Positions 6,518 to 60,900 of a stretch of 64,000 nt of DNA are shown piece by piece. The position numbers and the translations under genes were made by a program. The stretch is from Strigamia acuminata. Lineage: Eukaryota. The notes below the pieces were generated by a model, which saw only the letters and a list, made by a program, of their open reading frames with translations, did no database searches and had not been told where the DNA came from. Numbering within the stretch: position 1 is the first letter of the stretch; each line of letters opens with the position of its first letter. The stretch spans positions 6,262,001-6,326,000 of the forward strand of contig OX442314.1 of NCBI GenBank assembly GCA_949358305.1, written 5' to 3'.

Positions 6518-6519
6518 CG

Positions 6520-8110
6520 TGTGACGATTACCTTCTGGAGATAGCAATTGCTAAACTAAAGTGTGAACTATCTGTGTGAAAATGTAAAATATGCAAACCT
6601 GATGTTTTCTCAAAACATATAACATTTATTCCGGTTTGAACCTTATATAAATACTATGCCTACAAGTGGCTAAAATGACGATAAGTTAAACTATACAGTT
6701 ATTTGGCAAAAGCCCTGAAATAATATCATTTGAAGGCTTCAGTCAGGCAATAAGAATTTGTAACGGTCTTATTGCTGTGACGTAAAAGATGTCATCTATG
6801 AATGGCTTTGGTTTCTAAATGGTCCGGGGTTTGGTTCTAAAAAGGCGTGTAAATGGTTAGGCTGGGTGGGTTATATCCGAGAGGTGCGGTTGACTTTTCT
6901 GTATCGTCACACACATCGCATCGCAGATAATTATTGTAATCAATAATTATCGCGAGATGTAACAATGTGAGAATAAATAGTCATATTAATTCTATGGAAT
7001 TAATCATGATATTTTAGAGTCACAAACTTAACTTAAACTGTGAAAATAAGTAAAATATATTAAAATAGCGCCGAGCTATTTTTTGCCCCGAGTGCAATCA
7101 ACATCTAAGTTAGACTTAAATGTTCCGTCAAACCAATAACGAATTGAATCGAAATATCTCGCAGGAAAGGTTATCCATCGCCGGGAAATTACTCCACTCG
7201 GTCCTGGCTGGCGGGAGAGTAACCGGGAAATTACTCCGCGTCGATTACTCTGATAATGCGTCTGTGAAATATAAATACTCCACTCTAGATTCTACATTAC
7301 CAATGCGTCTGTGAATTTTACTCCACTCTAGATTCTGCACTCTACAACGGAATGTTGGCATGAAGCTGGAGGGAGTGCGTCTGTGGGTTGTACCCCACTC
7401 TAGATACTACACTTAAATGTGTCTGTGAATTACTCACTCTAGTTACTACATTTCTACAACGGAATGTTGGCATGAAGAGGCGGGCAGTGTGTCTGTGAGT
7501 CTTCTACCCACTCTAGATACTTACACTAAATACAAAGTATTTCTACAACGGATTGTCGGAACGCAGAGAAGTATAATATGTGCTCAAGTAATATCAGTAT
7601 CAAACAAAAACAGAACAAGAGCGAGCTATATCCGTTTTGCAGGGGGATATATACTCGGTGAGGAGAATAGCTGTTCAGTGATCCAATGGGATCACTGGGC
7701 AGTCAAATCCATCCAATCCCAGATCATAGGAAGTGGATACTCAGGACATAGTCTTCTACTAGGTCCACTACAGGAACTGGATACGCAGGACACATTTTGG
7801 ATTAAGTCCCTTTGACTATAATCCAAAAGGAGTCCAACTCACAGTGGGTGATGGGGGGTGACTTCACCAGGTGTAGAGTTTGCACATAATTCAATAGAAT
7901 TATGTGACAAATAAATCAACTAGTTTTTAAACATCCAAAAGTATTTAAAAGTGTCTAAAGTTGCAGTGGAATAAAATATAAATAGTAATTTATATTTTAT
8001 TCACTCAAAAATTGTCGAAATTTGAATTTACCGCTAAAACGCATCAGCGCCATCTATTGGTGAAGTAATCGTCCTATACTAACAAAGTGTATGACAGTGT
8101 AACCGTCACA
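6520..8110 (-). repeat. LTR of element A (1591 bp), shared between adjacent units
   Basis: Inverted termini TGTGACGATTAC...GTAACCGTCACA; PBS on one side, PPT on the other. Confidence 0.93.
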
Positions 8111-8120
8111 AGTCCCCCTT
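8111..8120 (-). promoter_or_regulatory. Polypurine tract (copy at 20545-20554)
   Basis: Minus strand AAGGGGGACT directly before LTR start TGTGACG. Confidence 0.8.
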
Positions 8121-8772
8121 AAATATATGTTAATACCTGTATTAACATACTATTTATTCCGAATATCTTGAGGATCAAGACCACACTGTCATCTATGGAA
8201 CTGGAGCTGTAATCCTTGGTAAGTAAAAACCTTTATTTTATATCTTAATAGTATAAATAAAGAGTATTTCTTAATCAAATGCTTCAAAAAATATTTATTA
8301 GGGTTATAAAACTTTCAATTATCAATAATAACTTCCATCTCTCTTTACAGGTGGACTTACAACTGCATCAAGAAAAAGGCGATAACTTAAACTAACATCA
8401 AACTCTTGTACCAAACAAATGATTAATAAAATTTAACAATTATTTTCACAAAACTTAACTTCTCACTGGAAATATAATGATTTGCAAAATAACACTTTAC
8501 ACGTTAAAATTCAAGTATTAAAATTAGTATTCATATAAACAAACTCACATTGACTCGTAATCAAAATTTTAACAGAATGGTTAATTTAAATATTAAAGAT
8601 CTTTGAATTATTCACAAAAAAAATGGCATAAAATACACCTAAACCTGACTAAATCTTTGTTTCATCTCGGGTCAAGCAATGGAGATGGAGAAAATGGACT
8701 CGTTACTTCTGGTCTTGCCTTGAAAAGGGAAAATATCGGGAAAGTAACGGATCCCGACATCGTTGACGCTTT

Positions 8773-10440
8773 CTAGTCCAACTCTTCATCCTCAATAAAT
8801 CCTTCCATGGATGTAACAACTTCCGAGACGGCTGCGGGTGGAGAATTAAGTTGAATAGTTACCAATTCCGGTACTATATCTGGCTCAACGTCATGGGCCA
8901 GTGGGTTCAGGAGCATTCTGTGTTGTTCCTCGGTGAATACTTCCAGGGGATCAGGCCCTCCTAACGGAATGGTGTTAGCGCTGGTTGGCTCGGAAAAAAC
9001 CAAGTGATGGTCGGGTAAGCCGGAGTGCCATCCCTCACGAATCAACGGGTGTGCTGCTGCTGAGACCTGTTGCAAAATCTTACACCAAATAAAAGAGCGA
9101 GTTTGAAAAGATTCCGGCCGGGATGGATGAAAAATCCATTGGATCACGGCCAGTGGCACGCTCAAATCTGGAATTCGGTCGTTTGAAATCGACATGCTAA
9201 TACGCTTAGCTGCTTCCAATAAAATTGGGAAATAATGTTCCACTTCTGCCTTCGTTTGTTCCGTGAGTGACATGTCTGGTCTCGGCATATATGGGTGGAC
9301 CAGTAAAATAACCGGTTCAGCGGCGTTGTTTACTTCGGGGAGCGGAATAGTCGCTACAATCATGTTGTTAGTCGATGTTCCCTCTGGAGAAGCGGCGGCT
9401 TTTGGACCAGACTCAGAGGCAACCGGCGGAGAATCCGACGCAATAACTGACGTTGGTTCGTTCGTTGGGAGTTTTTCCGCCGAGACAACCGGAGTTCCAT
9501 CAATCGCAGGGGTGGGAGTTTCCGGCTCGCGTTGTGGCTCCGTAAATCCTCCTCGTGGAGTCGAGGTGCTGGACATTTGCGCCGGGTCTACATAAATAGC
9601 CTGCTCCGGGCCCTGGTGGATGAGGCCACATTCGCGACACATCGCCCAATTGCGTGCTGTCGGCGTACTTAGCCCCTTGACGATAAATGGAAGAATTTCT
9701 TCATTCCACATGCTGGATATGGCAACGCGTTTACCACCGTGACAGTTCACGCAGACTACGGCGTGAATGCCGGATAACAAGGACGACAACCATCCGCATC
9801 CTGCGCACAATGGGCAGAACATAAGTTTCGACTTTGGCATGATGTTAGTCCCCAAGGCGGCAGCTTCCATATCTCGAAATACGTGTTCTCTTCGCTGTTT
9901 CCGGTAACTTGGCAAATTTAGCTCCGATATCGAGCGAGCCTGCGATGTTGGGCGGGTCAGCGCTTCGGATGAAGATGCCAACGTGGACTTGGTGGGTCCT
10001 TTGGGCTTGCCGGTTTTGCCTCGACTAGCGGTATCGCGAGGATTTCGTGGTCGGGCAAACTGCCTGCTGGTGGACTGAGGTGGAGCTTCTTCAACCGATT
10101 CTTCTTCTTGTGAGAAGTCATCTTGGCGTCGCCTCCTTGAAGCAGAACGGGAGTATTGTGACGAGTCGTCAGAAAAATCCCAATTCGGAGTCTCGTGGGG
10201 CGCATCATAGGTTACGACACGCTGAATAGCTTGACGGCCTCTGGAAGGACGCGAGTCGTTCGGACTGACGCCCATGGCGGTCCGAATCCGTGGCGGTACG
10301 AGATCCGGGTTATCACGAGCCCAGTTGGCGACGAGCTCGGGGTCAGAGGAGGGATTAACAAAGCGATAATCCGTCTCTTCCGACTCTTCTGGATCCCAGT
10401 GCACGTATTGTCGCTTGCTAGCGCGACCTCGGCGACTCAT
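8773..10440 (-). CDS. ORF3 of element A, 555 aa, Cys-rich accessory protein of unknown function (not Env-like)
   Basis: Long ATG ORF between pol and PPT; CPLCAGCGW..CVNC..CREC domain shared with ORF3 of element B; acceptor-like tract 5 nt before ATG. Confidence 0.88.
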   Translation of the reverse strand: MSRRGRASKRQYVHWDPEESEETDYRFVNPSSDPELVANWARDNPDLVPPRIRTAMGVSPNDSRPSRGRQAIQRVVTYDAPHETPNWDFSDDSSQYSRSASRRRRQDDFSQEEESVEEAPPQSTSRQFARPRNPRDTASRGKTGKPKGPTKSTLASSSEALTRPTSQARSISELNLPSYRKQRREHVFRDMEAAALGTNIMPKSKLMFCPLCAGCGWLSSLLSGIHAVVCVNCHGGKRVAISSMWNEEILPFIVKGLSTPTARNWAMCRECGLIHQGPEQAIYVDPAQMSSTSTPRGGFTEPQREPETPTPAIDGTPVVSAEKLPTNEPTSVIASDSPPVASESGPKAAASPEGTSTNNMIVATIPLPEVNNAAEPVILLVHPYMPRPDMSLTEQTKAEVEHYFPILLEAAKRISMSISNDRIPDLSVPLAVIQWIFHPSRPESFQTRSFIWCKILQQVSAAAHPLIREGWHSGLPDHHLVFSEPTSANTIPLGGPDPLEVFTEEQHRMLLNPLAHDVEPDIVPELVTIQLNSPPAAVSEVVTSMEGFIEDEELD

Positions 10441-11749
10441 TGTGTCTTCAAAAAGAAATAAATTTTATTTGAGAACATGAATCAACCGTCGGAAATTAAT
10501 TTAATTTCAAATTAAATTAATTGTCGAACAACAACTGGATTAATTTCATAATTAATTCTTAAGTTCCCTTGTTAGCGTGTTTCCTCCATTTTGTCGAATA
10601 ATTATTAAGATTAATAATTATTCTCGACTTGGCATATAATTTCATTTTATCGTTTAAAACAATATCGCTGATAAAATATTCAAATTAGTGTTTATTTAAT
10701 GAAATAAACCTAATTTTTGTATCTACACGACATAATAACTAAAAAACATATAAAAATATTAAAAAAAAAAATATTTTTGTAAGTGTTTTTTAGCATCCGA
10801 CAATAGTCATTTTACATGGTTTTAATTGTACGAATAATTCCACAATTCGTCCGAGTAAATAATTTACTACCGACATCTGGTGGCGTTTGCCCCTATCATA
10901 CACGTGGCTTGTTAACACATGTCTGCTCACCAATTTCCAAGGAACTTAAGAGATATTTTATCTTTCATAAAATAAACACTTACTAACTAGGTGTAGTCCT
11001 AGAAGGGTATACTTGGCTAGTTTAATGTCTAGCTTCACGTATTTGCGAGGGCTGCTCGGTTCCGGCGATGTTGGCCGATAAAAACGTTGTGCGGCGCGTG
11101 CGAATTCTAAGTCCGCCGTAATGAACGCTTAACCAAAATAAATGTTGTCAATTAATGTCAAAATATTATAAATTTTGACAAAATATTGCTTAAATATTTA
11201 CCGGGAATTCACTTAGTGAGTTCGTGAAAGGCTTACTCGCGATTTGTCCACGAGATGGTTTCGATAATCAGCGTCGTGTCGATAATTTCTGAATTTGAAC
11301 TGATATTCGTCAAATGAAAAAATCAGTAAAATAAACGATAAGTGTTCAAAATCATCTAGATTTTAACTCACTAAATTTCAGCGAAAATCCGTTAAAGCGT
11401 CGAAGGGTCGAGAATAATCCTTGATTTCAGTCCAGTACAAAACTTGGCGAACAAGTGAGTGATAATCTCAAACCAGGGGTTAAGGGGAGTTTCGAGGAGT
11501 AATTTGATTGGTTTGTAATTACTCATCTCGAAGTTTCTATTAACCCAAAGGGGGAAACACAGTTTCAAGTAAATGTTTACACGTAGATTAATTTAAATAT
11601 AATCGGCCGTGTAAAAATAACTCAAACATTTGTTAGATTTTATTCATCCCAAAAAAAAATGTTTTTAACTAATAAAATTTAACAATCCTTCGTGAATATG
11701 ATTGGAAATATTTATTTTAAAATAAAATATTTTCAATATATTGTGTTTT

Positions 11750-14700
11750 TTAACCCAACTTGACTTGTTTTAAACAATTTATGAGTTGTACAAAATCGGT
11801 CACGTATTTTGTGTTCGGCTTGGGTCTACGTTTAGACTGTCGAACGGGAGATGGAAATCTTTTCCTCTTTTTAGATGGATTTTGAGGAGTTTCGTCCTCT
11901 TTAGAAGAAATCTGAGAAGTTTCCTCCTCTTTCTCTTCAACTAAATCCTCTGTTTCCATGGACACAGGTTCATTTATTAATTCTGAAGAATTAATAACTT
12001 GACCTGCCATCCAATCTGGAGTCGGGTGTGACTCGTTGGTACCGACTTTCTGATCTAATGTCCATTCCTCAATCGGGTAACTTGGGATATAAGGCATTAA
12101 ATCCTGTATGTTGATCGCTTTGGCTTTCGTGTTATCAGAAAGCTTCCGTAGTGTGTAGGAACCTCCGCCGAGAACAGCCGTAATTTCCCAAGGTCCATCA
12201 CGTTTCTCAGCGAATCCTGCCGAAATCCCTTTATCTTTATTCGATAAAATATGTGTGGCTTTCCACACGAGATCTCCTTTGGCAAATTGACAAATATAAT
12301 ATTTGTCTTTATGTAGTCGATCATGCTTTTCGTAATTCGATTGAATTTTCCGATGCATTTCGCTGTGTGCACGTCTAATTACGTCTAAAATGCTGTAGAC
12401 GTAGGCTTCGGGATTTTCTTTGTCGAATTTGATGGCGTGTTTAGTAATACGCGGATCAAATGGCAAAGGAACGTTTCTTCCCGTATTAAGAATCATCGGT
12501 GAACAATTTGTTGCCTCGGACTTAGCGGTGCGCATCGCAAAGGCAAAAGAATTTAAATATTTTGGCCAGTGGGAGTGAATGTCCGAGTATAAAGCTAACA
12601 TCATTTTTAAAGTCCGGTTAGCCCGCTCTGTAATATTAGCGGCAGCGTGATATGGGCTAATGTGAGCAATATCTACGTGATTCTTTTGACAAAAATCATT
12701 AAATATTGTCGACACAAATTGTTTGCCGTTGTCGGAGATTATCTTTTTTGGATATCCCCAACGGTGGAAAACTTCGCTCATTTTATTAACGATGCATTCA
12801 CTTGATGCAGTCGCTAGTGGGAAGACTTCAATCCATTTTGTACAATTATCAATGATTACTAAAATCCATTTTAATTGTGAACGACCGGCTGGTTTTGGTC
12901 CCATCAGGTCAATGCTTACAGTCTCCCACGGGTTGGTCATGTTGTGAGGTGTATAGCTTGCCCGATGCTTTTGGTGTTGACTAGGTTTGTATTGTTGGCA
13001 ATGAGTGCAACTGCGAACGTAGTTTCGAGTGTCTTTGCTCATTCTAGGCCAGAAATACATCTGTTTTGCTCTATCTAGGGTTTTGCTCATGCCGGCATGT
13101 CCTGTAAGTGGGTGGCCATGGCATGCGAATAATGCACGTCTCACGAGTGAGCGTGGAATTACCGCCTTAAACCCGTTGCCAGAGTCGTTTAACTCTTCCT
13201 CATCGGTCGGAGCAAAATAAATTAGCATAACACCTTTATTTTCTTCCGGTTCGTCGAGAGTGTAGCCACGAATCGCATTTAACCAATGTTTATCCGTGAT
13301 ACGATTTTTTAATTTTTCGTCTCCTTTTAGGTAAACAAGGATTTTACTACATGCTGGATCTTTAAGTTGCGCTTCGATAATTTCGTCTCGCGTCGGCGGA
13401 ACTACTTTTATGATATCTGTTAGCGCAGTGTGTACATTTTCGTGATTACAATTGTGGACATCTATATGTCTGCAATTTTCTCTCGTACATCCTTCTTCCT
13501 CCCCCTTTTCTCCAGAATCATGAAATCTAATTGGATTATATGATTCTGAGAAAAAATCTAAACTAAGGCCAACATTTGTAAGAAAATGTTTGCGCTCAGT
13601 TTCCGTCACTTGTAAAGATGCACACCTGTTTCCATTCCAAGTTGGATAGAAATGGGTGATTTCCTCTGGTTCGATATAATCATAATCCGGAGTGTCTAGT
13701 GCAGACAGTGGAGCGCGTGACAATGCGTCCGCTACTTGGTTCATTGCACCGCGTCTAAAAATAATTTTAAACGCGCCACATTGTATTTTGACGGCCCAAC
13801 GACCAAACCTTCCCGATGGTTCCGGCGTACTCATCAACCAGCTAAGGGCCTTAGCATCGGACTCGAGAGTGAAAGTCGTGTATTCAATATATGGGCGAAA
13901 TCTTTCGATTGCCCATACAACGGCCAAACACTCCAATTCCGGCGTAGAATACCTTACTTCGGCCCCGTGTAACACTCGACTGGCGTACGCGACTGCTTTC
14001 GGGACCATTATTAATTTCTGTTTCTTTTCACAGAATAATTCTACGTCTTGACAGAGTACTGCACCTAAGCCTGAATGAGAAGCATCTGTCAAAATGACAA
14101 AAGGCTTATTCATATCTGGCATGTGGAGAAGGGCTTGGTCCTTGTCACACAAGATGTCTTTGATAGTTTCGAATGCAGTTGTTTGTGGTTCATCCCACAC
14201 AAACTTTGCTTGATCATGCATAATATTGGTCAATGGACGAGCAATATTTGCGATGTTAGGAATGAATTTTCGGAAAAAATTCGCAAGTCCTACAAATCTT
14301 TGTATGTCTTTAGAACAAGTTGGTTTGGGAAAATTCCTTACAGCCGAGACTTTGTCAGGGTCTGGAAGAAGAGATCCCTCCGAAATTAAGTGGCCTAAAA
14401 ATCGTAATGATGTTCGACCAAATTTTGACTTGTCTTTATTGATAGTTAGATTCGCGGCATCCAACTTCTCAAGTACGTCTTTAATATGTAATAAATGATT
14501 TTCCCATGTGTCGGAAAAAATAATTATATCGTCTAAATAAACTAGAGCATGTTTATATAGAGAGTCACCCAATACGGTAGTCATGAGGTGTTGAAAAGAA
14601 CTAGGTGCATTACAAAGACCAAATGGCAATCTCTTGAATTGAAATTTGCCTTTTGGGGTGTAAAAAGCAGTTTTGCTCTTATCCTCCTCCTCCATTTCCA

Positions 14701-16030
14701 TTTGATGATAACCTTTAGTTAAATCAATGGATGTAAAGTACTTGGCCTGATTAGTATGGTGAATTAATAGGTCAATACTTGGCATTTGAATTGCATCAAC
14801 TTCTGTGATCGCATTCAACCAGCGGTAGTCGATACATAATCGATACTTCCCGCCGGGTTTAGCCACTATGACGGGGTGACTTATATAGGGGCCGGTGGCA
14901 GGTTCGATTAACCCATCGGCCTCTAATTCCTCGACCAATTCCGTCATAATCGCCTTCTTGGCCGGATTGTACATTCTATACGGCTGGTGTTTCCAAGTAG
15001 CACCAGGTTTAAACTTGATGCTGTGCTTGGCAACCTTCGTACAGCCCAATTGGTCTCGAAATACGTTTTTTAATTGCAAAAGAACGTTTACGAGTAACTG
15101 TTTTTCTTCCGCCGAACTGTTGCAGCCTTTCACGAGTTTTTCTGCCCAGTCCGGTGAAGTGGGAGTTCCTTCACCTTGGAGACCCAAAGTCTTAATGCTT
15201 GCTAAGCAACAATTAAGTTCAGTGGTCTCGTACGGGGCTGTCCATCCGGGCATGTCATCACAGGTGAACACTGCTCGTTTTGGATTTAAGTTAACTCCAG
15301 TTCTACGCATAAAGTTGTGGCCTAAAATCAACCCACATACATTCTTGTGTAGAATTATGAAGGTCATAGGTGTAACTCTCTTTTTATCGGCCCATTTGAC
15401 ACAAAGACAAACTTGACCGATAGGTCGGTGATCTATTCCGACTGCGCAGACACGCATTCCTCGGGGACATTCTTGTATGAATTCCACCGGAATTTCTGTG
15501 TTTGAAAGGAGTTGTACTCCAATAAAACATTGGGTGGCTCCAGAATCCATTAATGCGTTGTAATCTAAACCTCCGATTTGGATATTCATACGCGGATCAT
15601 CTTTGCCACCATTAATTAATTTGCTATTGCAAAGTTTGCCAAGAAATACTTTTCGTTCTTTCTTGTTCCATTTTTCAAGTTTAAGAATTTTCCTTAACTT
15701 GAAAACTTTGGGTACAAGCGGTTTTTTTGGTGCATACCAGCTTCCACTAAAAATACTCAAATTTTCTAGTTGGTCTGTCATGACTTTTAAATTTTCATCG
15801 ACACCGCCAGTAGAGCTGCTAGTCTTTCGACAGACAGGTACTGCTTCGTAAGAAATGACCAACGATGGTGGTTTATTCTTCGAATCATCGACATAAGGTA
15901 CTGTGAGATGACTAGGCTTATGTCTTAATTTAAATTCATCTTTTCGTGAAAATAAATCATTTGACAATTCCGAGAGGGGAAACAACTCTTTAAGCGGGGG
16001 TTGGGCAACTTGAACAACCCCCTGAATCAG
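11750..16030 (-). CDS. pol: Pol (protease, RT, RNase H, integrase), expressed by -1 frameshift from gag
   Basis: LMDSGA, YLDD, TDAS..ELECLA, H-H-C-C, IDLMGP/SDNG/ERANR, GPW; frame open back to the slippery site. Confidence 0.97.
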   Translation of the reverse strand: MIQGVVQVAQPPLKELFPLSELSNDLFSRKDEFKLRHKPSHLTVPYVDDSKNKPPSLVISYEAVPVCRKTSSSTGGVDENLKVMTDQLENLSIFSGSWYAPKKPLVPKVFKLRKILKLEKWNKKERKVFLGKLCNSKLINGGKDDPRMNIQIGGLDYNALMDSGATQCFIGVQLLSNTEIPVEFIQECPRGMRVCAVGIDHRPIGQVCLCVKWADKKRVTPMTFIILHKNVCGLILGHNFMRRTGVNLNPKRAVFTCDDMPGWTAPYETTELNCCLASIKTLGLQGEGTPTSPDWAEKLVKGCNSSAEEKQLLVNVLLQLKNVFRDQLGCTKVAKHSIKFKPGATWKHQPYRMYNPAKKAIMTELVEELEADGLIEPATGPYISHPVIVAKPGGKYRLCIDYRWLNAITEVDAIQMPSIDLLIHHTNQAKYFTSIDLTKGYHQMEMEEEDKSKTAFYTPKGKFQFKRLPFGLCNAPSSFQHLMTTVLGDSLYKHALVYLDDIIIFSDTWENHLLHIKDVLEKLDAANLTINKDKSKFGRTSLRFLGHLISEGSLLPDPDKVSAVRNFPKPTCSKDIQRFVGLANFFRKFIPNIANIARPLTNIMHDQAKFVWDEPQTTAFETIKDILCDKDQALLHMPDMNKPFVILTDASHSGLGAVLCQDVELFCEKKQKLIMVPKAVAYASRVLHGAEVRYSTPELECLAVVWAIERFRPYIEYTTFTLESDAKALSWLMSTPEPSGRFGRWAVKIQCGAFKIIFRRGAMNQVADALSRAPLSALDTPDYDYIEPEEITHFYPTWNGNRCASLQVTETERKHFLTNVGLSLDFFSESYNPIRFHDSGEKGEEEGCTRENCRHIDVHNCNHENVHTALTDIIKVVPPTRDEIIEAQLKDPACSKILVYLKGDEKLKNRITDKHWLNAIRGYTLDEPEENKGVMLIYFAPTDEEELNDSGNGFKAVIPRSLVRRALFACHGHPLTGHAGMSKTLDRAKQMYFWPRMSKDTRNYVRSCTHCQQYKPSQHQKHRASYTPHNMTNPWETVSIDLMGPKPAGRSQLKWILVIIDNCTKWIEVFPLATASSECIVNKMSEVFHRWGYPKKIISDNGKQFVSTIFNDFCQKNHVDIAHISPYHAAANITERANRTLKMMLALYSDIHSHWPKYLNSFAFAMRTAKSEATNCSPMILNTGRNVPLPFDPRITKHAIKFDKENPEAYVYSILDVIRRAHSEMHRKIQSNYEKHDRLHKDKYYICQFAKGDLVWKATHILSNKDKGISAGFAEKRDGPWEITAVLGGGSYTLRKLSDNTKAKAINIQDLMPYIPSYPIEEWTLDQKVGTNESHPTPDWMAGQVINSSELINEPVSMETEDLVEEKEEETSQISSKEDETPQNPSKKRKRFPSPVRQSKRRPKPNTKYVTDFVQLINCLKQVKLG

Positions 16031-16036
16031 TTTTTT
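15996..16036 (-). promoter_or_regulatory. -1 ribosomal frameshift signal (copy at 3562-3602)
   Basis: A_AAA_AAC before gag TGA, 7-nt spacer, stem GGGGGTTG..CAACCCCC; -1 frame reads into pol. Confidence 0.88.
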
Positions 16037-18084
16037 GTCTCGTCGGGAGTGACTGACTCAGTGGCTGCTGGTAAATGCTTAATTAACAGGTCAACCATGT
16101 TTTTCTGGAAGTCAGTAAATTTGGAGTCTAAAGTTTCTGACGTAACCCAATTTTGTTTGGGTCGTTTAAACTCGGGGTTGGGAGCAGAGTGGTTAAATCT
16201 TTTATTTGCATTTAACGAGTCTGATTTCCCTGCTAATTTTTTGGCAAGAGCGGGACATTCTCTTTTAAAATGTCCAGGCTCGTGACAGAAAAAGCATTTT
16301 CCAGTAGTCTTTTCATACTGGGCGGCAAATAATCGCTCCATTGAACCATCGTCAGTTGAGTCGTCATTCTCCGACTCGTCTTCATTTTCAACTTCATCTT
16401 GTGTTTGCGTTAAACGTAGTGAAGTTTTAGATGGAAAAATCTTAGATTTTTCGTGAAGTTTGGGAGTAGGATGATTCTCTCGATTATCATACTCCAATTT
16501 TGCTGCAAGTTGAGAACTTTCAAACTTAGAGCAATTTGCTCCTACATATTGTAGAATGTCATCTACTGTAAAGTTACCATACATTCCTTGTGTACATAAC
16601 GCCGTGAAACTTTCTTGAGTTAAATTGTCGAATAATTGCGCACGTCCAGTTTTATCACCTGGCGGCACTTCACCTTGTTCTTGCGTATAACGCAGAAGAA
16701 AACTATAAAGTGACTCGTCGGCTCGTTGTTTTACATTAAGAAGTCGCCTTTCTCTTGTAAGTGGAACGAGATCGAAGCAATCGAGAAAAGAGGCTTCGAA
16801 AGTTCGCCAACTGTTAAAAGTATGGCGTTGCTTATGGAACCAACGTTGTGCATGGCCTAATAGTCGTCCAGGTACAGCAGTGTGTACCATGTCGTCTAAA
16901 GGGATGCCTTTCCCGAGTGCGACAGCTTTGACGATTTCAAGGAATCGCGCAACCTCTGTCTGTTTCCCGTCAAAAATAGGAATCTCGATTCCTTTCCCAA
17001 AATTCTGACTGGGATTACTCGGGCTTCGGATTTGACCAACTAAACCCTGAATAATTTGTTTTACATTTTCGTCCGACAAATTAGAAGCAGAGTTCGAATT
17101 GGGTGTAGACCGACTTTCTTGGTCTCTGGGTGGCGGATTTGGCTCTCCTTGAAAATTTTGATGTCTATCAGGTGGCGGTGGAGAATGCGAATTATTTCGT
17201 CGGTGGAAATTATTGTTATAATTTCCCCCTCTACCAGCGTGAGATTCGTCACTACTCGAGTTAGGATCGGAGTCACGAGGATCACCAGGAGCTCCGGGAA
17301 ATCGTTGATTTCTCGGCGGAGCTCGTCCACCTTGAGAGCGGGAATTTCTATAATTCCTAAAATCTCCATCAGATTGGGTGTGAGATTGAAAATTTTGATA
17401 ATTTTCATTTCTCCCCCTTGGTTGGACCGACAGATTAGTTCGAGGCTGTGGAACTCTGAAAGAATCATTCAAATTCCCAGTGGGAGCGGGTAAAATATTA
17501 TTTACAGCCGTCGTACTTGGTAAATTTCGGGAAATTGGCGCAGAAATATTTCCTTGTCCGGAATTTCCCATTCTTTCGGCCGAATTCGATCGCCAAGAAC
17601 TAGTTGGTAACTGAATCGAAGGTTGAACAGATAGTGAAGAATTTAACTGCCCATTGTCGTCACGAGCAACATTCATTCGCCATCCAGGCAATTGCTGGTA
17701 GCGATATGTGGCCGGCGAACGAGGGCCAGTTCGATCTACAGAAACACTTCGTTCGTTGGTTACAACTACATCGGGAGTAATTACACGATTTCTCTCGTGA
17801 TGATTATTCGCCGTGTATTGTTGAGCTTCACACAAAGAGGAAAACTGCGTCACTTCCAATTGGTAATGGCGACAGTAAACTTCTAAATCATGTGGGACTG
17901 ATAGTGGATCCGTTCGAGAACTACCTGGGTTGGAAACGTCTCTAGGAACATTTTCTTCCCCCTGGCTTTCTAGATCAGACTCCACAATTCCTCTTGGTGT
18001 TTCACACATACCACCACGTCGTCGTGCTCCACGATTTCCTCGTGTTCCACGAACTCTTACAGGTCTACGGGCCATAATACTCAA
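16027..18084 (-). CDS. gag: Gag of element A (first ATG at 18075)
   Basis: Same translation as 3593-5650. Confidence 0.92.
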   Translation of the reverse strand: MSIMARRPVRVRGTRGNRGARRRGGMCETPRGIVESDLESQGEENVPRDVSNPGSSRTDPLSVPHDLEVYCRHYQLEVTQFSSLCEAQQYTANNHHERNRVITPDVVVTNERSVSVDRTGPRSPATYRYQQLPGWRMNVARDDNGQLNSSLSVQPSIQLPTSSWRSNSAERMGNSGQGNISAPISRNLPSTTAVNNILPAPTGNLNDSFRVPQPRTNLSVQPRGRNENYQNFQSHTQSDGDFRNYRNSRSQGGRAPPRNQRFPGAPGDPRDSDPNSSSDESHAGRGGNYNNNFHRRNNSHSPPPPDRHQNFQGEPNPPPRDQESRSTPNSNSASNLSDENVKQIIQGLVGQIRSPSNPSQNFGKGIEIPIFDGKQTEVARFLEIVKAVALGKGIPLDDMVHTAVPGRLLGHAQRWFHKQRHTFNSWRTFEASFLDCFDLVPLTRERRLLNVKQRADESLYSFLLRYTQEQGEVPPGDKTGRAQLFDNLTQESFTALCTQGMYGNFTVDDILQYVGANCSKFESSQLAAKLEYDNRENHPTPKLHEKSKIFPSKTSLRLTQTQDEVENEDESENDDSTDDGSMERLFAAQYEKTTGKCFFCHEPGHFKRECPALAKKLAGKSDSLNANKRFNHSAPNPEFKRPKQNWVTSETLDSKFTDFQKNMVDLLIKHLPAATESVTPDETKN

Positions 18085-18933: not shown

Positions 18934-18951
18934 ATCTCGGTAGAACCTCCA
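18934..18951 (-). promoter_or_regulatory. Primer-binding site, tRNA-Gln
   Basis: Same 18-mer next to LTR 18954. Confidence 0.88.
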
Positions 18952-18953
18952 CG

Positions 18954-20544
18954 TGTGACGATTACCTTCTGGAGATAGCAATTGCTAAACTAAAGTGTGA
19001 ACTATCTGTGTGAAAATGTAAAATATGCAAACCTGATGTTTTCTCAAAACATATAACATTTATTCCGGTTTGAACCTTATATAAATACTATGCCTACAAG
19101 TGGCTAAAATGACGATAAGTTAAACTATACAGTTATTTGGCAAAAGCCCTGAAATAATATCATTTGAAGGCTTCAGTCAGGCAATAAGAATTTGTAACGG
19201 TCTTATTGCTGTGACGTAAAAGATGTCATCTATGAATGGCTTTGGTTTCTAAATGGTCCGGGGTTTGGTTCTAAAAAGGCGTGTAAATGGTTAGGCTGGG
19301 TGGGTTATATCCGAGAGGTGCGGTTGACTTTTCTGTATCGTCACACACATCGCATCGCAGATAATTATTGTAATCAATAATTATCGCGAGATGTAACAAT
19401 GTGAGAATAAATAGTCATATTAATTCTATGGAATTAATCATGATATTTTAGAGTCACAAACTTAACTTAAACTGTGAAAATAAGTAAAATATATTAAAAT
19501 AGCGCCGAGCTATTTTTTGCCCCGAGTGCAATCAACATCTAAGTTAGACTTAAATGTTCCGTCAAACCAATAACGAATTGAATCGAAATATCTCGCAGGA
19601 AAGGTTATCCATCGCCGGGAAATTACTCCACTCGGTCCTGGCTGGCGGGAGAGTAACCGGGAAATTACTCCGCGTCGATTACTCTGATAATGCGTCTGTG
19701 AAATATAAATACTCCACTCTAGATTCTACATTACCAATGCGTCTGTGAATTTTACTCCACTCTAGATTCTGCACTCTACAACGGAATGTTGGCATGAAGC
19801 TGGAGGGAGTGCGTCTGTGGGTTGTACCCCACTCTAGATACTACACTTAAATGTGTCTGTGAATTACTCACTCTAGTTACTACATTTCTACAACGGAATG
19901 TTGGCATGAAGAGGCGGGCAGTGTGTCTGTGAGTCTTCTACCCACTCTAGATACTTACACTAAATACAAAGTATTTCTACAACGGATTGTCGGAACGCAG
20001 AGAAGTATAATATGTGCTCAAGTAATATCAGTATCAAACAAAAACAGAACAAGAGCGAGCTATATCCGTTTTGCAGGGGGATATATACTCGGTGAGGAGA
20101 ATAGCTGTTCAGTGATCCAATGGGATCACTGGGCAGTCAAATCCATCCAATCCCAGATCATAGGAAGTGGATACTCAGGACATAGTCTTCTACTAGGTCC
20201 ACTACAGGAACTGGATACGCAGGACACATTTTGGATTAAGTCCCTTTGACTATAATCCAAAAGGAGTCCAACTCACAGTGGGTGATGGGGGGTGACTTCA
20301 CCAGGTGTAGAGTTTGCACATAATTCAATAGAATTATGTGACAAATAAATCAACTAGTTTTTAAACATCCAAAAGTATTTAAAAGTGTCTAAAGTTGCAG
20401 TGGAATAAAATATAAATAGTAATTTATATTTTATTCACTCAAAAATTGTCGAAATTTGAATTTACCGCTAAAACGCATCAGCGCCATCTATTGGTGAAGT
20501 AATCGTCCTATACTAACAAAGTGTATGACAGTGTAACCGTCACA
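18954..20544 (-). repeat. LTR of element A (second copy)
   Basis: Copy of 6520-8110 at +12,434. Confidence 0.93.
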
Positions 20545-21657
20545 AGTCCCCCTTAAATATATGTTAATACCTGTATTAACATACTATTTATTCCGAATAT
20601 CTTGAGGATCAAGACCACACTGTCATCTATGGAACTGGAGCTGTAATCCTTGGTAAGTAAAAACCTTTATTTTATATCTTAATAGTATAAATAAAGAGTA
20701 TTTCTTAATCAAATGCTTCAAAAAATATTTATTAGGGTTATAAAACTTTCAATTATCAATAATAACTTCCATCTCTCTTTACAGGTGGACTTACAACTGC
20801 ATCAAGAAAAAGGCGATAACTTAAACTAACATCAAACTCTTGTACCAAACAAATGATTAATAAAATTTAACAATTATTTTCACAAAACTTAACTTCTCAC
20901 TGGAAATATAATGATTTGCAAAATAACACTTTACACGTTAAAATTCAAGTATTAAAATTAGTATTCATATAAACAAACTCACATTGACTCGTAATCAAAA
21001 TTTTAACAGAATGGTTAATTTAAATATTAAAGATCTTTGAATTATTCACAAAAAAAATGGCATAAAATACACCTAAACCTGACTAAATCTTTGTTTCATC
21101 TCGGGTCAAGCAATGGAGATGGAGAAAATGGACTCGTTACTTCTGGTCTTGCCTTGAAAAGGGAAAATATCGGGAAAGTAACGGATCCCGACATCGTTGA
21201 CGCTTTCTAGTCCAACTCTTCATCCTCAATAAATCCTTCCATGGATGTAACAACTTCCGAGACGGCTGCGGGTGGAGAATTAAGTTGAATAGTTACCAAT
21301 TCCGGTACTACATCTGGCTCAACGTCATGGGCCAGTGGGTTCAGGAGCATTCTGTGTTGTTCCTCGGTGAATACTTCCAGGGGATCAGGCCCTCCTAAGG
21401 AATGGTGTTAGCGCTGGTTGGCTCGGAAAAAACCAAGTGATGGTCGGGTAAGCCGGAGTGCCATCCCTCACGAATCAACGGGTGTGCTGCTGCTGAGACC
21501 TGTTGCAAAATCTTACACCAAATAAAAGAGCGAGTTTGAAAAGATTCCGGCCGGGATGGATGAAAAATCCATTGGATCACGGCCAGTGGCACGCTCAAAT
21601 CTGGAATTCGGTCGTTTGAAATCGACATGCTAATACGCTTAGCTGCTTCCAATAAAA
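20545..21657 (-). mobile_element. Truncated third unit of element A (PPT, 3'UTR, 3' end of ORF3)
   Basis: Matches 8111-9224, then homology stops abruptly at ...GCTTCCAATAAAA. Confidence 0.93.
21207..21657 (-). pseudogene. 3' fragment of ORF3 with 1-bp deletion
   Basis: CCTAAGG versus CCTAACGG in the intact copy; 5' part absent. Confidence 0.8.
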
Positions 21658-22073
21658 ATGTTACACCAAAATCATCACTTAATTTTGAATATTATACAAA
21701 AAACGACATTAAATTGAAAATTTTAAAATTATACGATAAATTTCATAAAATGGTGAATTTTAAATGTCTGATAGTTTTAATGTCTGATAGTTCTAGAAAA
21801 AAACTCTAAAGACTAGGTACCTCGCTAGACCGGGCACTTTCTACCGTATCCGCCTCTTTGGCCCTCAATATTTCTAAAGCTCATTGAGACAAGCACAATC
21901 ACATATTTATTCCCGTCACCCAAATGTTGCTACACCTTGAATATGGTACGTGGTGCTGTCGTCTTCGGACGAAATCAGCTCCACTCTGTCGTGATTATCT
22001 GGGTCTGTGTAACCTCATTGGGTGTTGTGTGTGGCCCCTATGTCCCTGCTTTTCCGCGGGGGGGGAGATGAGA

Positions 22074-55344: not shown

Positions 55345-56862
55345 CTATTCCTTCTTTTCGACATCAGTCGAATCTTTCTCTTCCTTCTTCTCGACTTCAG
55401 TAGAAGTCAGGAGATCGGACTCTTCAGTCGCTTCAGTCAAAGCGGCAGAAAACACAGCTTCTACGGAAGCTTCCATTTCGTCCGGGCTCGGCGGCGGAAA
55501 CGGCATGTCGTCGAAAAACTCGGCCACGAAATCGACGACTGAAGGTAGTTCTTCAGCATCCTCGAACTGTGCCTCGTCCGAAGTTTCAGACTTAGGTGCG
55601 ATAGGAGCGCTCGACACGTCGATTACGACCGCTGGAGGATCCTCCACGGGTTTAGACGACGCTTCTACAGCCTGTTGAAGCTTACGAGCTCGCCCTCGTG
55701 CCAAGATATTGGTTCGCTGAACCTTGGCAATTTCCTTGGCTCGGTCGAGCGTGAGGCAGCCTCGACCACGCGACATCGTTCTTGGTCGAACGAATTCTTC
55801 TTGCACCTCGCTTCCAACGCTTTCAGTGGCCTGGACAGTTTCAGTAGAAACTTCGGAGTCCTCGGACAGTGGTGGCGATTGTCGAAGGAGTTCGACTCTT
55901 ACGCCGGCGTTGGCTTCAGCACGGGTCCAGGTGAGGAAACGCGGGTCGATGTACACAGCCTCGCCACGGCTGTTTAGAAACAATCGGCACTTGGGGCAGT
56001 GAGCCCAACATCGCTTCTCGTTCGGCTTAATGCCTTTCACCACGTGGGGTTGAACCTCCTTGCGCCACGGCTCCGAACGCGGTCGCGTTTTCCTTCCACG
56101 GCAGTTTGGACAACGCATTAAAGAAGAACCTGCGGATGCACCGCAGCACCACCCACAGCCGACGCAAAATGGGCAGATCGTCTCTGTTGCCTGGTCCGTC
56201 ACGATGTTATCGTGAGGTATTCCGGCTGCCATGTCTCGTTCGCACTGCTCCTTGCGCAGGCGGGCCTTCTCGTCCTTCTTTCGTGCCTTATTGGCCGCTC
56301 GGTACTCGCGGTTGCGAGAAACAGGCTCCGAAAAACGCAAAGCGCCCGGCGGCGGCTCATTCCATCCGTATTCTGATGCAGAAGACTCAGCACCAGCAGG
56401 AAGATGCGTAACAGACGCTGATTGTCCCGTCACAGTCGGTGCAGCCGCATTCGACGTGTTGGCGACGGTGGGTGCCACGCTTGCAGTTGGCGGCCGAAAT
56501 TCTGGCGAATGTGGGGCCAACGGGACGTTGATAACGTTCGCAGGCGGAAATGCTACCTGGGCCAACGGGGCCAATTGCGCCGACTCATAAACAGTTGGCT
56601 GCGCAGAAGTGGACGGGGCCTGCATCATCGCGTTTAAGTCGAGCGGAAATCCGTCCGGATGGACACTGAGCCAATTAAGCGTTGCGAGTTGCAGCGGCGT
56701 CAGGGCGTACATCGAGGCGGGCGCCGTCGGTATCGGTTGGGCCCTCATGTAAGCACGTTCCGCTGAACGGCGTTGCTCGTCACTAGACGAGGTGGACGAG
56801 CTGGAGCTTTCATGACGGTGTCGTCGATGACTCCGTTTCGAACGGTGTTTACCGCTTCCCAT
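55345..56862 (-). CDS. ORF3 of element B, 505 aa from ATG 56862, Cys-rich accessory protein
   Basis: CPFCVGCGW..CPNC..CPKC domain homologous to ORF3 of A; TTTGCGTCTGCAG|ATG acceptor context. Confidence 0.88.
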   Translation of the reverse strand: MGSGKHRSKRSHRRHRHESSSSSTSSSDEQRRSAERAYMRAQPIPTAPASMYALTPLQLATLNWLSVHPDGFPLDLNAMMQAPSTSAQPTVYESAQLAPLAQVAFPPANVINVPLAPHSPEFRPPTASVAPTVANTSNAAAPTVTGQSASVTHLPAGAESSASEYGWNEPPPGALRFSEPVSRNREYRAANKARKKDEKARLRKEQCERDMAAGIPHDNIVTDQATETICPFCVGCGWCCGASAGSSLMRCPNCRGRKTRPRSEPWRKEVQPHVVKGIKPNEKRCWAHCPKCRLFLNSRGEAVYIDPRFLTWTRAEANAGVRVELLRQSPPLSEDSEVSTETVQATESVGSEVQEEFVRPRTMSRGRGCLTLDRAKEIAKVQRTNILARGRARKLQQAVEASSKPVEDPPAVVIDVSSAPIAPKSETSDEAQFEDAEELPSVVDFVAEFFDDMPFPPPSPDEMEASVEAVFSAALTEATEESDLLTSTEVEKKEEKDSTDVEKKE

Positions 56863-57914: not shown

Positions 57915-60900
57915 TTAATTCCAACAGAACTTTGAGGCTTTTCCTCGTTGTTGATATGGTTTTTTAAATACTGCAGTGATGTTTCGTACGAAATTTTCAT
58001 CTGCATATTTAGGATTTGGCCTTCGCTCTCGTCGAGGACGAAGGCTAGTTCGCGGAACTACCGGTTGGGGTTTGCGGGGTTTCCGAGGTGGTTTCTTTGG
58101 AGTTTCACCTCTTTTCAACGCCGCTTTCCTTTCCATAGCAGTTAAGCGTTGTCTATGTCTATGTTTAGACTTTGAGGGCGCAGATTTGTCAATCTGCACT
58201 GAAGTTGAGTCGGATAATTCCATTGGAATTTCTGAGGAAATTTCAGGAATTAATTCCATTTCCTCAGCATCCGGAAGTTGATTACTTTCGTCCATCCATT
58301 TAGGATTTTCTTGAGGCGAGTAAGAGGCGGACTTTTGTCCTACTTTCCAAGTCTCAATCGGGTACGAAGGCGTATAGGGGTACAACGCTTTAATGTTCAC
58401 TGATTTTTCGATCGAACCATCAGATAATTTGCGTAATTTATACGCTCCGCCTGGAAGTACTTTAGTAATCTCCCACGGGCCATCTCTCTTCTCCGCGAAA
58501 CCAGCAGAAATATTTTTATCTGCGCACGAGAGAATGTGAGTTTGTTTCCAAACTAAATCTCCAACTTCGAACTCCGTAATTACGAACTTTTGTTCGTGTA
58601 TTTTTCTATGCCGCTCAAAATTCAGTTGAATTCTACGATGCATCTCTTGATGCGATCTGCGCAATACATCCAATAGTACTCTGACATATTTTTCTGGGTT
58701 TTCTTTGTCAAATGGATTGGCATGTTTGATAATCCTTGGATCGAAAGGTAATGTTACGATTCGTCCCGTGTTCAGTAACATCGGGCTTGAGCCCGTTGCC
58801 GCTGAGACATTATTTCTCATCGCGAACGCGAATTCGTCTAAATATCGTGGCCATTGCGTGTGCACATCTGTGTACAGGGCCAGCATCGTCTTTATATCTC
58901 TATTGGCTCGCTCTGTCGGGTTCGCCTGGGCATGATACGTGCTCGTATGAGACGGGCGAATGTTGTACATTTCGCAATACTCATTGTAAATATCGGAAAC
59001 AAATTGTTTTCCGTTATCGCTCACAATCTTTTTGGGGTGTCCCCATCTGTTTGTAACAGATCTTAATTCTTGAACGCAGTTAGCGCTCGTGGCTTTGGTC
59101 AAAGCCTTAATTTCAACGAACTTGGTACAATTGTCAATAATGACAAAAATATACTGGTTTTGGGACCTTCCCGCGGGTTTTGGGCCCATCAAGTCCATGT
59201 TAATACATTCCCAAGGATTGGTCATGTTGTGTGGTGTGTAAGGAGCCGCGTGCCTTTTCTGTTGAATAGGCTTGTACTGAGCACAGTGCGTGCAGCTTTT
59301 GACGTAGTTCCTGACACTTCTACTCATACCAGGCCAGAAATATATTAAACGAGTTTTCTCAAGCGTCTTACTCATCCCAGCGTGACCGCTTAGGGGGTGG
59401 CCGTGACAAGCAAAGAGTACTCGTTTTACGAGTGAACTGGGTACAACGGCTTTAAAGCCATTTCCCGAATCGTTTAATTCCTCTTCGAACGAAGGGTTAA
59501 AATAGATGATCATTTGATCACCATCAACTTCTTTTTTGTCCAAACAATAGTTTTTGACTTTGTTTTTCCATTCTTTTATTTCAGATTGTGGTATCCCAAC
59601 AACCTTGTCATTCAATAAATATTCTCGAATGCGTTTGCATTCAATATCTAGTAACTGAGCATCTATTATTTCTCTCCTTGTAGGAGGGACTTCTTTAAGT
59701 ACTTCAGTCAACGCACTGTACAAGGTTTCTTGTACTTCCTCCCCCTCCTTTTCTTCAGAACATTCTTTAGAATTTTCTGAAAAATAGGAACGCACACTAG
59801 CCAAATATTCTCGTTTCTCCGGGGCACGATTTAATGAAACAGAAGGATTTCCGTCCCACTCAGGCCAGTATTGTTTAATTTCAACAGGTTCCACATGATC
59901 ACGAAGAGGAATGTCTTCCTCTGTTAGTGGGGCTCTAGAAAGTGCATCTGCAACTTGGTTAGCAGCACCCTTTCGAAAAACAATTTTAAAATTTCCACAT
60001 TGGATTCTTAAGGCCCATCGGCCAAATTTCCCAGATGGTTCAGGCGTTCGCATCAACCATTTCAGTGCTTCTGCATCTGACTCTAAAGTGAATGTACCAT
60101 ATTCGAGATATGGTTTAAATCGATCAATAGCCCACACGACTGCGAGACATTCGAGTTCCGGCGTTGTATAACGCTTCTCCGCTCCACGTAAAACTCTGCT
60201 TGCATAAGCTACAGGTCTGGGTACAGAAATGTTTTTCTGCTTCTTTTCATCGAATATATCGACGTCTTGGCAAAGGACAGCTCCTAAGCCTTCATGTGAA
60301 GCGTCAGTCATGACAACAAATGGCAAAGTCATATCTGGTTTGTGTAGACAATTGTCGCCACAAAGTAGCTCTTTAATTTTATTAAACGCTTCTGTCTGCT
60401 CATCTCCCCATTCAAATGGAGTTTTCTCATTCATCATACGTGTGTATGGTGCGGCAATAGTTCCGTGATTTGGAACAAACTTCCTGAAGAAGTTAGTCAT
60501 GCCGTGAAAGCGCTGAATGTCTTTAGCACACGTGGGGGTCGGAAATTTCATGATCGCCGATATTTTATCGGGATCACCGAAGAGACCTTCGGGTTTAATC
60601 CAGTGGCCCAAGAATTTTAATTCTGTACGCCCAAAACGAGATTTCGCTTTATTTATTGTCATGTTGGCTTGGTTAAGCCTTTCCAAAACATCTCGAACAT
60701 GTTTGAGATGATCATCCCAATTATCTGAATATACAATTACGTCATCCAAATAAACTAACGCGTAGTCTTGTAAAGCTGAGCCTAAAATGCCTTCCATCAG
60801 ACGCTGGAAAGTACAAGGCGCATTGCAAAGGCCGAACGGCATTCGCACAAATTGATAAGGGCCGTTTGGCGTATAAAACGCCGTTTTTGGACGATCTTCC

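What the first reader, a model, noticed from the sequence alone, without database searches (positions are those of the whole stretch)
8773..10440. Non-Env third ORF with an unrecognised three-CxxC domain conserved between two Gypsy families
Seen: in the env position both elements encode ~500-550 aa proteins that I cannot align except for ~100 aa (A ~9582-9900; B ~55942-56260): RDM..NI..CPxCxGCGW-x12-CxNCxGxK-x6-WxxExxPxxVKG..RxWAxCxxCxL..AxYxDP. Both have Arg/Lys/Ser-rich N-termini and acidic C-termini, with no obvious signal peptide or TM helix. Known: CxxCxGxG resembles DnaJ-type zinc fingers, and complex retroviruses use Cys-rich/basic accessory proteins. Inference: a nuclear Zn-binding regulator (transactivator, RNA-export factor or silencing suppressor) of a 'complex' retrotransposon lineage.
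Basis: partly seen in the sequence, partly recalled or inferred. Interest (0 to 1): 0.88.

Follow-up and report, generated by a model that had tools for sequence, protein, structure and literature searches.

The report
New zinc-domain gene in Gypsy retrotransposons
Two related jumping genes in this animal genome carry, where retroviruses keep their envelope gene, an intact and strongly conserved third gene whose cysteine-rich, predicted zinc-binding domain matches no catalogued family and was otherwise found only in centipede proteins; it likely acts as the element's own nuclear on-switch, which is untested.

Summary
Confirmed. Both Gypsy elements carry an intact ORF3 after pol (A 555 aa, B 505 aa). 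The two share one 105-aa Cys-rich domain (36% identity, E 1e-20) and have no transmembrane segment. The domain is under purifying selection: 35 of 40 listed variants among family copies are synonymous, and none changes a Cys. Its only credible homologues are four Strigamia maritima (centipede) gene models, three of them joined behind pol fragments, so it marks a lineage of at least three families. Six Cys (three CxxC) are invariant in all five full-length sequences. The first two pairs resemble DnaJ/anti-TRAP CxxCxGxG knuckles, and a variable loop pair suggests two zinc sites. It is not Env. Best guess (0.4): a spliced-mRNA nuclear activator or anti-silencer of the element's own LTR. RNA export (CERV/Rev-like) is the main rival. 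Function, expression and zinc binding are untested. Non-Env ORF3s are a known kind; this domain family appears undescribed.

The parts
8773..10440 (-). Element A ORF3, 555 aa, intact
9583..9894 (-). Cys-rich domain of A ORF3 (aa 183-286): CxxC at 209/212, 230/233, 268/271; further candidate ligands C215, H226, H275
   Evidence: purifying selection
9022..9315 (-). Second conserved domain of A ORF3 (aa ~376-473), predicted four helices; shared with Strigamia P0132/P0124, absent from B
8776..9015 (-). Acidic C-terminal tail of A ORF3 (net -16, 12 W/F/Y/L in 80 aa); candidate activation region (inferred)
10446..10465 (-). Candidate 3' splice acceptor ending 5 nt before the ORF3 ATG (inferred; no RNA evidence)
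10441..11749 (-). 1.3-kb AT-rich non-coding spacer between pol and ORF3
11750..16057 (-). Element A pol (PR-RT-RH-IN), overlapping gag in the -1 frame with an A-run at the junction
16027..18075 (-). Element A gag (Retrotrans_gag, CCHC knuckle)
18954..20544 (-). 5' LTR of element A (1591 bp), identical to the 3' LTR
18934..18951 (-). Primer-binding site; its first 12 nt equal a PBS assigned to tRNA-Gln in PMC13524379 supplement 1
8111..8122 (-). Polypurine tract of element A
6520..8110 (-). 3' LTR of element A, shared as 5' LTR with the next tandem copy (PBS, gag 5641-3593, pol running off the window start)
7260..7551 (-). Five-copy motif array inside the A LTR (an 8-mer x5 and a 7-mer x5); candidate family-specific cis array
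21207..21660 (-). 3' fragment of ORF3 from a 5'-truncated upstream tandem copy; holds all 3 differences of the 9.2-kb duplication, one a 1-nt indel
55345..56862 (-). Element B ORF3, 505 aa, intact; a CAG directly precedes the ATG
55942..56256 (-). Cys-rich domain of B ORF3 (aa 203-307)
57915..62123 (-). Element B pol, 55% identical to A pol
62111..64000 (-). Element B gag, cut by the window end; 31% identical to A gag over 335 aa
52842..54600 (-). 3' LTR of element B (about 1.76 kb) behind its PPT

Best explanation
ORF3 is an intact, selected, non-envelope accessory gene of one Gypsy lineage, and it likely encodes a nuclear, predicted zinc-binding activator that would keep the element's own LTR switched on against host silencing. 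SHOWN: position after pol, intact frame, purifying selection, six invariant Cys, no TM segment, an acidic tail in A and B, and presence in at least three families. INFERRED: (1) ORF3 is translated from a spliced subgenomic mRNA, with a donor at the LTR end or leader and an acceptor just before the ATG. (2) The domain holds two Zn ions: one in the DnaJ/anti-TRAP-like pair of CxxCxGxG/K knuckles, one between the third CxxC and a variable Cys/His pair in the loop. (3) Basic patches take the protein to the nucleus, where the Zn domain docks on the LTR directly or through a host factor, and the acidic-hydrophobic tail recruits activators or opposes silencing. (4) The rest is fast-evolving low-complexity linker, with an optional helical interaction domain (A and the centipede family, not B).
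For: Selection within family A: 35 synonymous and 5 non-synonymous among 40 listed variants (41 found), against an expected synonymous share of 0.22-0.29 (ratio about 0.05, p <1e-13); the one variant in a Cys codon is synonymous; no indels listed. Between families the domain keeps 36% identity, more than gag CA-NC (31%), while third positions are saturated (identity 0.51/0.59/0.29 by codon position; 4 of 16 four-fold sites). Homologues: P0123, P0124, P0128 and P0132, all named Strigamia maritima; three follow pol fragments in their gene models. Every full-length domain has at least 8 Cys/His; P0128 lacks both the loop Cys and the third CxxC. The basic tip, central Cys/His finger and acidic tail repeat the layout described for geminivirus AC2, a transactivator and silencing suppressor (PMC8062710, passages). 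Strigamia methylates its LTR retrotransposons (PMC6673714, passages). The A LTR holds a five-copy motif array (5 copies against at most 3 in 200 shuffles; 0 in 31 kb of other window DNA), like the repeated motifs on which VANC depends (PMC6719617, passages).
Against: There is no direct functional evidence. Acidic tails and basic patches are common in disordered proteins. The acidic-tile criterion was met strongly only by B; at the strict setting A met it only near its N-terminus. B's LTR has no comparable array (top k-mer count 2, within shuffles). The domain matches no known DNA-binding fold, and its model is unreliable (pLDDT 39 and <50). The splice acceptors were only 5th (A) and 4th (B) in a crude pyrimidine ranking of their spacers. 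The host of the window is not identified, so TE methylation in this host is assumed. The elements show no CpG depletion (o/e 0.8-1.7), which does not point to long-term methylation.
Confidence: 0.4

Rival explanations
1. ORF3 is a Rev/CERV-like post-transcriptional factor: it would bind the unspliced genomic RNA through the Cys domain and promote its nuclear export, or block its splicing.
For: The only tested accessory protein of an animal Gypsy-type element that I found, CERV of C. elegans Cer1, does this, is 517 aa, comes from a spliced mRNA and needs a Cys loop (PMC10309623, passages). Candidate donors and acceptors would make the genomic RNA intron-retaining. There is a 1.0-1.3 kb non-coding spacer in the RRE position, and diverged contigs still align at 11022-11360 (table 8). 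B and the centipede family share an Arg/Ser-rich N-terminal tip (score 70 against shuffle maximum 68, low complexity).
Against: CERV's Cys spacing (C193, C195, C200, C269) and H/M/G domains differ from this domain. The A and B spacers share no significant sequence (score 49, shuffle maximum 50) and hold no Rfam match. A conserved export signal was not found: NES-like patterns fall at unrelated places in A and B.
Confidence: 0.25
2. ORF3 is a protein-binding adaptor that would disarm a host defence in trans, for example small-RNA (piRNA/siRNA) factors or a ubiquitin ligase, without acting on the LTR itself.
For: DnaJ/anti-TRAP-type Zn knuckles, the nearest look-alikes (Anti-TRAP in 4 of 5 members, best E 0.001, below the curated cutoff; hhalign 91% to a DnaJ-repeat protein), bind proteins rather than nucleic acid (recalled). 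The long divergent linkers and an optional helical domain suit an adaptor.
Against: The review passages read state that known TE anti-silencers are narrow and family-specific, because broad suppression harms the host (PMC6719617). Cullin and CNOT1 rows in the fold search are unspecific (best Z 6.6).
Confidence: 0.17
3. ORF3 is a particle-associated or integration-targeting protein that would tether the integration complex to chosen chromatin.
For: Strigamia Copia elements captured an MBD proposed to steer integration (PMC6673714). Element A sits in a near-identical tandem array.
Against: Known targeting domains (chromodomain, MBD) are fused to integrase in the same ORF, whereas ORF3 is a separate gene 1.0-1.3 kb behind the pol stop.
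Confidence: 0.08
4. ORF3 is an unrecognised or degenerate envelope or cell-cell fusogen.
For: It lies in the env position, is of env-like length, and is probably spliced like env.
Against: No TM or signal segment, a single N-glycosylation sequon each, low-complexity charged sequence, CxxC (metal-type) spacing, and no Env family or fold hit.
Confidence: 0.03

Closest known systems
CERV of C. elegans Cer1 (Ty3/Gypsy), nuclear export factor; PMC10309623 (passages read)
   Same: Roughly 500-aa non-structural accessory protein of an animal LTR retrotransposon, lineage-restricted, with essential Cys residues proposed to form a C4 finger.
   Different: CERV overlaps gag exons, has H/M/G domains and a CxC-x4-C...C loop. 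This ORF3 lies in the env slot, has three CxxC plus a loop pair, and has no G domain. No sequence comparison with CERV was possible.
Non-Env ORF3s of bdelloid rotifer LTR elements (GDSL esterase, DEDDy exonuclease, CC, TM); PMC5408684 (passages read)
   Same: A separate third ORF after pol that is not Env; the paper notes that such ORF3s are typically expressed from spliced messages.
   Different: Those are recognisable captured enzymes or TM proteins. This one has no catalytic family match and is mostly low-complexity around a Zn-type domain.
VANC anti-silencing proteins of Arabidopsis VANDAL DNA transposons; PMC6719617 (review passages read)
   Same: Possible working analogy: a TE-encoded accessory protein acting through repeated motifs in its own family.
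   Different: Plant MULE system; no sequence relation tested or found; the motif array here is seen in family A only.
Geminivirus AC2/TrAP; PMC8062710 (passages read)
   Same: Same order of parts: basic N-terminal patch, central Cys/His finger, acidic C-terminal region.
   Different: A small plant DNA-virus protein with a CCHC finger; analogy only, no homology.
DnaJ central CXXCXGXG domain (PF00684) / Anti-TRAP (PF15777)
   Same: The first two CxxC pairs follow CxxCxGxG/K and align to such repeats.
   Different: All scores are below curated cutoffs. Only about 40 of 105 residues align. The helix, third CxxC and YxDP end have no counterpart, and there is no J domain.
Errantivirus Env (F-type or HSV gB-type); PMC13524379 (passages and supplement rows read)
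   Same: Position after pol; a tRNA-Gln PBS also occurs in a few such elements.
   Different: No signal peptide, ectodomain, TM anchor or Env family hit.

Membership tests
Ty3/Gypsy LTR retrotransposon (Metaviridae) | LTRs, PBS, PPT, gag with CA/CCHC, pol in the order PR-RT-RH-IN | tested here: met
Named Gypsy clade (e.g. Osvaldo, Gmr1, errantivirus) | RT groups with reference members | tested here: inconclusive
   A+B (99/94) and P0008 (100/99) form their own clade in a tree of 45 of 142 RT rows; no named reference elements were available
Env / fusogen ORF3 | Signal peptide and C-terminal TM anchor | tested here: not met
   hydropathy maxima 1.55 and 1.14, charged termini; SignalP/TMHMM not run
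Env / fusogen ORF3 | Homology to F-type, gB-type or retroviral Env | tested here: inconclusive
   no Pfam hit and no Foldseek hit at E <=0.001, but most of the model is low-confidence
DnaJ CXXCXGXG / Anti-TRAP zinc domain | Score at or above the curated Pfam cutoff | tested here: not met
   Anti-TRAP 13-15 bits against cutoff 32 for P0002 and P0128; DnaJ E 1.1 at best
DnaJ CXXCXGXG / Anti-TRAP zinc domain | A pair of CxxCxGxG-like motifs | tested here: met
   both motifs fit CxxCxGx[GK] in A, B and P0128; only the second fits in the centipede family C
DnaJ CXXCXGXG / Anti-TRAP zinc domain | Same fold | tested here: inconclusive
   domain pLDDT <50 in both models
CERV-like export factor | CERV Cys-loop spacing and H/M/G domains | tested here: not met
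   spacing in PMC10309623; no Rossmann-like domain predicted
CERV-like export factor | Needed for nuclear export of genomic RNA | not testable with these tools
   needs experiment
VANC-like anti-silencer / viral transactivator | Repeated family-specific cis motif in non-coding DNA | tested here: inconclusive
   present in the A LTR, not in the B LTR
VANC-like anti-silencer / viral transactivator | Raises transcription or lowers methylation of the cognate element in trans | not testable with these tools
   needs experiment
Rotifer enzymatic ORF3 (GDSL, DEDDy) | Catalytic family match | tested here: not met
   0 families for A and only weak Anti-TRAP for B in Pfam at E <=1

The most novel reading that the evidence does not exclude
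A centipede-associated lineage of 'complex' Gypsy retrotransposons encodes its own family-specific anti-silencing factor, built on a new two-zinc fold, that recognises motif arrays in its LTR and keeps the element active in an arthropod group that methylates its transposons: an animal retrotransposon counterpart of plant VANC.
Probability: 0.15. Interest if true: 0.87.

Novelty: new variant of a known kind. Interest (0 to 1): 0.62.

Why it matters
Few accessory proteins of animal LTR retrotransposons have a tested function (CERV is the one I found), and the review read lists TE-encoded silencing suppressors from plants only. This lineage has kept a non-Env third gene under strong selection across families whose silent sites are saturated, so the gene does something the element needs. 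It gives a compact target (a 105-aa domain, six invariant Cys, young near-identical copies, an LTR motif array) for asking whether animal retrotransposons carry their own activators or counter-silencers, as complex retroviruses do. It also adds two domain families that the Pfam, PDB and Atlas searches run here did not recognise.

Tried and rejected
No whole genome is held for this window, so genome-wide copy counts were not possible. Word-index search with the A domain: 0 of 49 candidates at E <=0.1. ESM Atlas: no usable hit for either domain; this shows neither absence nor novelty. PDB sequence searches: best E 1.8, 0.89, 0.2. Viral contigs: 0 of 52 stretches for the domain and 0 of 58 for pol. 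Metagenome contigs: 0 of 350 for the domain. The 80 loci found with pol are distant Gypsy elements (best segments 26-50% identical), and none holds the domain (best E 0.26). Of 8 hits, four (P0125, P0126, P0127, P0129; 6-13 weak stretches in repetitive proteins) were rejected as artefacts, and P0130 is a generic DnaJ-repeat protein. NCBIfam: 0 for A and B. PHROGs: only weak hits to unknown-function families (best E 2e-4). Foldseek PDB and BFVD: none at E <=0.001. VIA-align: best Z 6.6 for the helical domain, within the common range; the Cys domain was barely tested. No RNA holder was listed, which says nothing on expression. The pol-ORF3 spacers and 3' UTRs of A and B share nothing above shuffles. 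The LTR-internal element folds no better than shuffles (z 0.07 and -0.85). An intersubunit zinc site (homodimer) was considered and dropped once at least 8 ligands were counted per chain; it was not modelled. The idea that the 9.2-kb repeat is a giant LTR holding the end of ORF3 was rejected: PPT, TG..CA ends and PBS define a 1591-bp LTR. Earlier-scan look-ups by sequence, words and genome gave nothing.

Full report
Anatomy. All parts lie on the minus strand. Element A runs 5' LTR 20544-18954, PBS, gag 18075-16027, pol 16057-11750, a 1.3-kb spacer, ORF3 10440-8773, 3' UTR, PPT and 3' LTR 8110-6520. That LTR is followed by a PBS and another gag-pol, and the 5' LTR is preceded by the 3' end of another ORF3: bases 1-9227 equal 12435-21660 with 3 differences. 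So A is a very young head-to-tail array with shared LTRs; an assembly artefact cannot be excluded from one window. Element B has the same layout (gag to 62111, pol 62123-57915, ORF3 56862-55345, LTR about 54600-52842). Pfam finds PR, RT, RNase H and integrase in Gypsy order and CCHC gag in both. The first 12 PBS bases equal a PBS assigned to tRNA-Gln in supplement 1 of PMC13524379. A and B pol are 55% identical. In an RT tree of 45 of 142 rows (a hand-picked subset) they are sisters (99/94) and group with one unnamed protein, P0008 (100/99); no named clade could be assigned. The host is an animal, judging by a cluster of amiloride-sensitive channel exons and a FLYWCH-MULE.

Observation. The shared domain is real: 38 of 105 identical, E 1e-20, and the only significant segment. 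It occurs nowhere else in the window. Outside it A and B align no better than shuffles. Neither protein has a TM-like window (1.55, 1.14), and each has one N-glycosylation sequon. The last 80 residues are acidic (-16, -22), while only the N-terminal tips are basic.

Selection. Between A and B, codon positions 1, 2 and 3 are 0.51, 0.59 and 0.29 identical, and 4 of 16 four-fold sites match, so silent sites are saturated while the protein is better kept than gag. Three public runs of one coded organism (two studies) hold the family, and their contigs cover all 30 bins of the element, ORF3 included. Over the domain, 40 of 41 variant rows were shown: 35 are synonymous and 5 are not, against 0.22-0.29 expected, a ratio near 0.05. 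Two rows in one Leu codon have equal depths and are probably linked, which would make it 36 to 4 (by eye). The single variant in a Cys codon is silent, which alone has little power; no indel was listed. Of 10 ORF3 rows shown, all outside the core domain, 7 are synonymous. Caveat: contig variants mix alleles, copies and subfamilies. One contig in each of the three runs fits only 9644-9681 and runs on unlike at both sides, a hint of a more diverged family (table 7).

Relatives. Full HMMER over 1.84 billion representatives gave 8 hits at E <=0.001. Three are genuine (P0123 7e-29, P0124 9.5e-27, P0128 5.4e-9), four are repeat artefacts, and one is a DnaJ-repeat protein. A five-sequence profile added P0132 (3 hits among 4643 candidates of 208-2000 aa). 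All four genuine hits are named Strigamia maritima. P0123, P0124 and P0132 are gene models in which pol pieces of the same lineage (38-62% identical to A or B) run into an ORF3-like part, so the domain follows pol in a third family, C. I saw only the predicted proteins, not their DNA. P0128 is shorter and more distant, and its context is unknown. No database protein is near-identical to A or B, so the window's host may be another centipede, or these families were not annotated; the host is inferred, not shown.

The domain. C-x2-C, G-W, C-x-N-C-x-G and W are invariant in all six sequences, and the third CxxC in all five full-length ones; the Cys in 'GCGW' is T or S in the centipede proteins. 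The first two pairs resemble CxxCxGxG knuckles: Anti-TRAP matches 4 of 5 members weakly, DnaJ 1exk at E 1.1, and hhalign to P0130 gives 91% over 40 columns (a partner chosen after the search). Each full domain has further ligands in the loop: C215/H226 in A, C236/C239/C240 in B, a fourth CxxC in family C. P0128 lacks both these Cys and the third CxxC. I infer two zinc sites. AlphaFold2 could not model the domain (mean pLDDT 39; <50 in the second run).

A second domain. A aa ~376-473 aligns with the C-terminal part of P0132 (score 89; 0 of 2000 shuffles reach it, maximum 66) and P0124 (63; maximum 59), but not with B. It is predicted as four helices, with block pLDDT 60-83 over aa 380-459, and has no Pfam, PDB, Atlas or specific fold match. 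ORF3 is therefore modular: B is closer to C in the Cys domain (44-48%) yet lacks the helical domain that A and C share.

Expression. An AG after a T-rich run ends 5 nt before the ATG in A and a CAG directly precedes it in B; donor-like sites lie at the LTR end and in the leader of A. These acceptors were not the top-ranked ones, and no RNA run was available, so splicing is inferred. The centipede gene model P0124 also enters ORF3 two residues before a Met whose sequence resembles B's start.

Mechanism. I commit to a nuclear activator or anti-silencer of the element's own LTR (0.4). The grounds are the basic tip/Cys finger/acidic tail layout (as described for AC2, PMC8062710), methylation of LTR elements in Strigamia (PMC6673714), and a five-copy motif array in the A LTR. 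Against it: B has no such array, the elements are not CpG-depleted, and nothing was tested functionally. Export of unspliced RNA as by CERV (PMC10309623) is the main rival (0.25), then a host-protein adaptor (0.17), integration targeting (0.08) and Env (0.03).

Literature. Nine full-text searches were run. None listed a paper describing this ORF or domain; the search for retrotransposon + DnaJ-like zinc finger + gypsy returned 0. The library lacks most subscription papers, and Repbase, Dfam and GyDB were not searchable, so a database entry may exist. Seen as passages only: PMC10309623, PMC7998251, PMC5408684, PMC13524379 (supplement rows 56, 59), PMC6673714, PMC6719617, PMC13269885, PMC8062710, PMC6338049. 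Other papers were seen as search listings only; other supplements were not read. The TM threshold, slippery-site and splice consensus, and the protein-binding role of DnaJ/anti-TRAP fingers are recalled.

Verdict. A real, selected, non-Env third gene with an apparently undescribed Cys domain (and a second new helical domain), so far seen only in this window's lineage and in centipede proteins. Extra non-Env ORF3s are a known kind, so this is a new variant; its function is open and testable. Interest 0.62.

Noticed in passing
window 1-21660: Head-to-tail array of element A with shared LTRs (period 12,434 bp, 3 differences in 9.2 kb, all in the truncated ORF3 fragment). It could be a recent tandem insertion, unequal recombination or an assembly artefact.
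   Followed up: partly
window 6911-6776 and 53144-53008: Both LTRs hold an internal ~136-bp stretch bounded by copies of the LTR's own terminal inverted repeats. This is the best A/B LTR alignment (score 51, shuffle maximum 46) but it does not fold better than shuffles.
   Followed up: partly
window 8055-7975 and 54559-54460: The 5' ends of the A and B LTRs share an 11-mer AGATGGCGCTG (YY1-like, recalled) and a 15-mer holding AATAAA only ~110 bp from the LTR start.
   Followed up: no
window 16027-16060 and 62111-62125: Both gag/pol overlaps have an A6-C run, a stop and a G5 run, which suggests a conserved -1 frameshift signal.
   Followed up: no
window 11022-11360: Diverged contigs (about 85% alike) still align in this part of the pol-ORF3 spacer, a possible conserved cis element within family A.
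   Followed up: no
window 29621-31543 (+): Intact 640-aa MULE transposase with FLYWCH at the N-terminus and a C3HC4 RING finger at the C-terminus behind Pro/Val repeats (Pfam E 7e-9).
   Followed up: no
window 22200-52200: Cluster of at least three paralogous amiloride-sensitive (DEG/ENaC) channel genes, one inverted, 68-78% alike.
   Followed up: no
window 25519-25893 and 33551-34077: Two arrays of a 54-bp hairpin-like repeat in opposite orientation, plus a 35-bp array at 33015-33245; they flank the MULE region and may be a transposon's subterminal repeats.
   Followed up: no
window 41034-42730 (-): Decayed Copia remnant (RVT_2); no MBD-like ORF was evident by eye in six-frame ORFs.
   Followed up: partly
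P0008: Unnamed 1328-aa Pol, 56% identical in RT-RH and sister to A+B; whether its element has ORF3 is unknown.
   Followed up: partly
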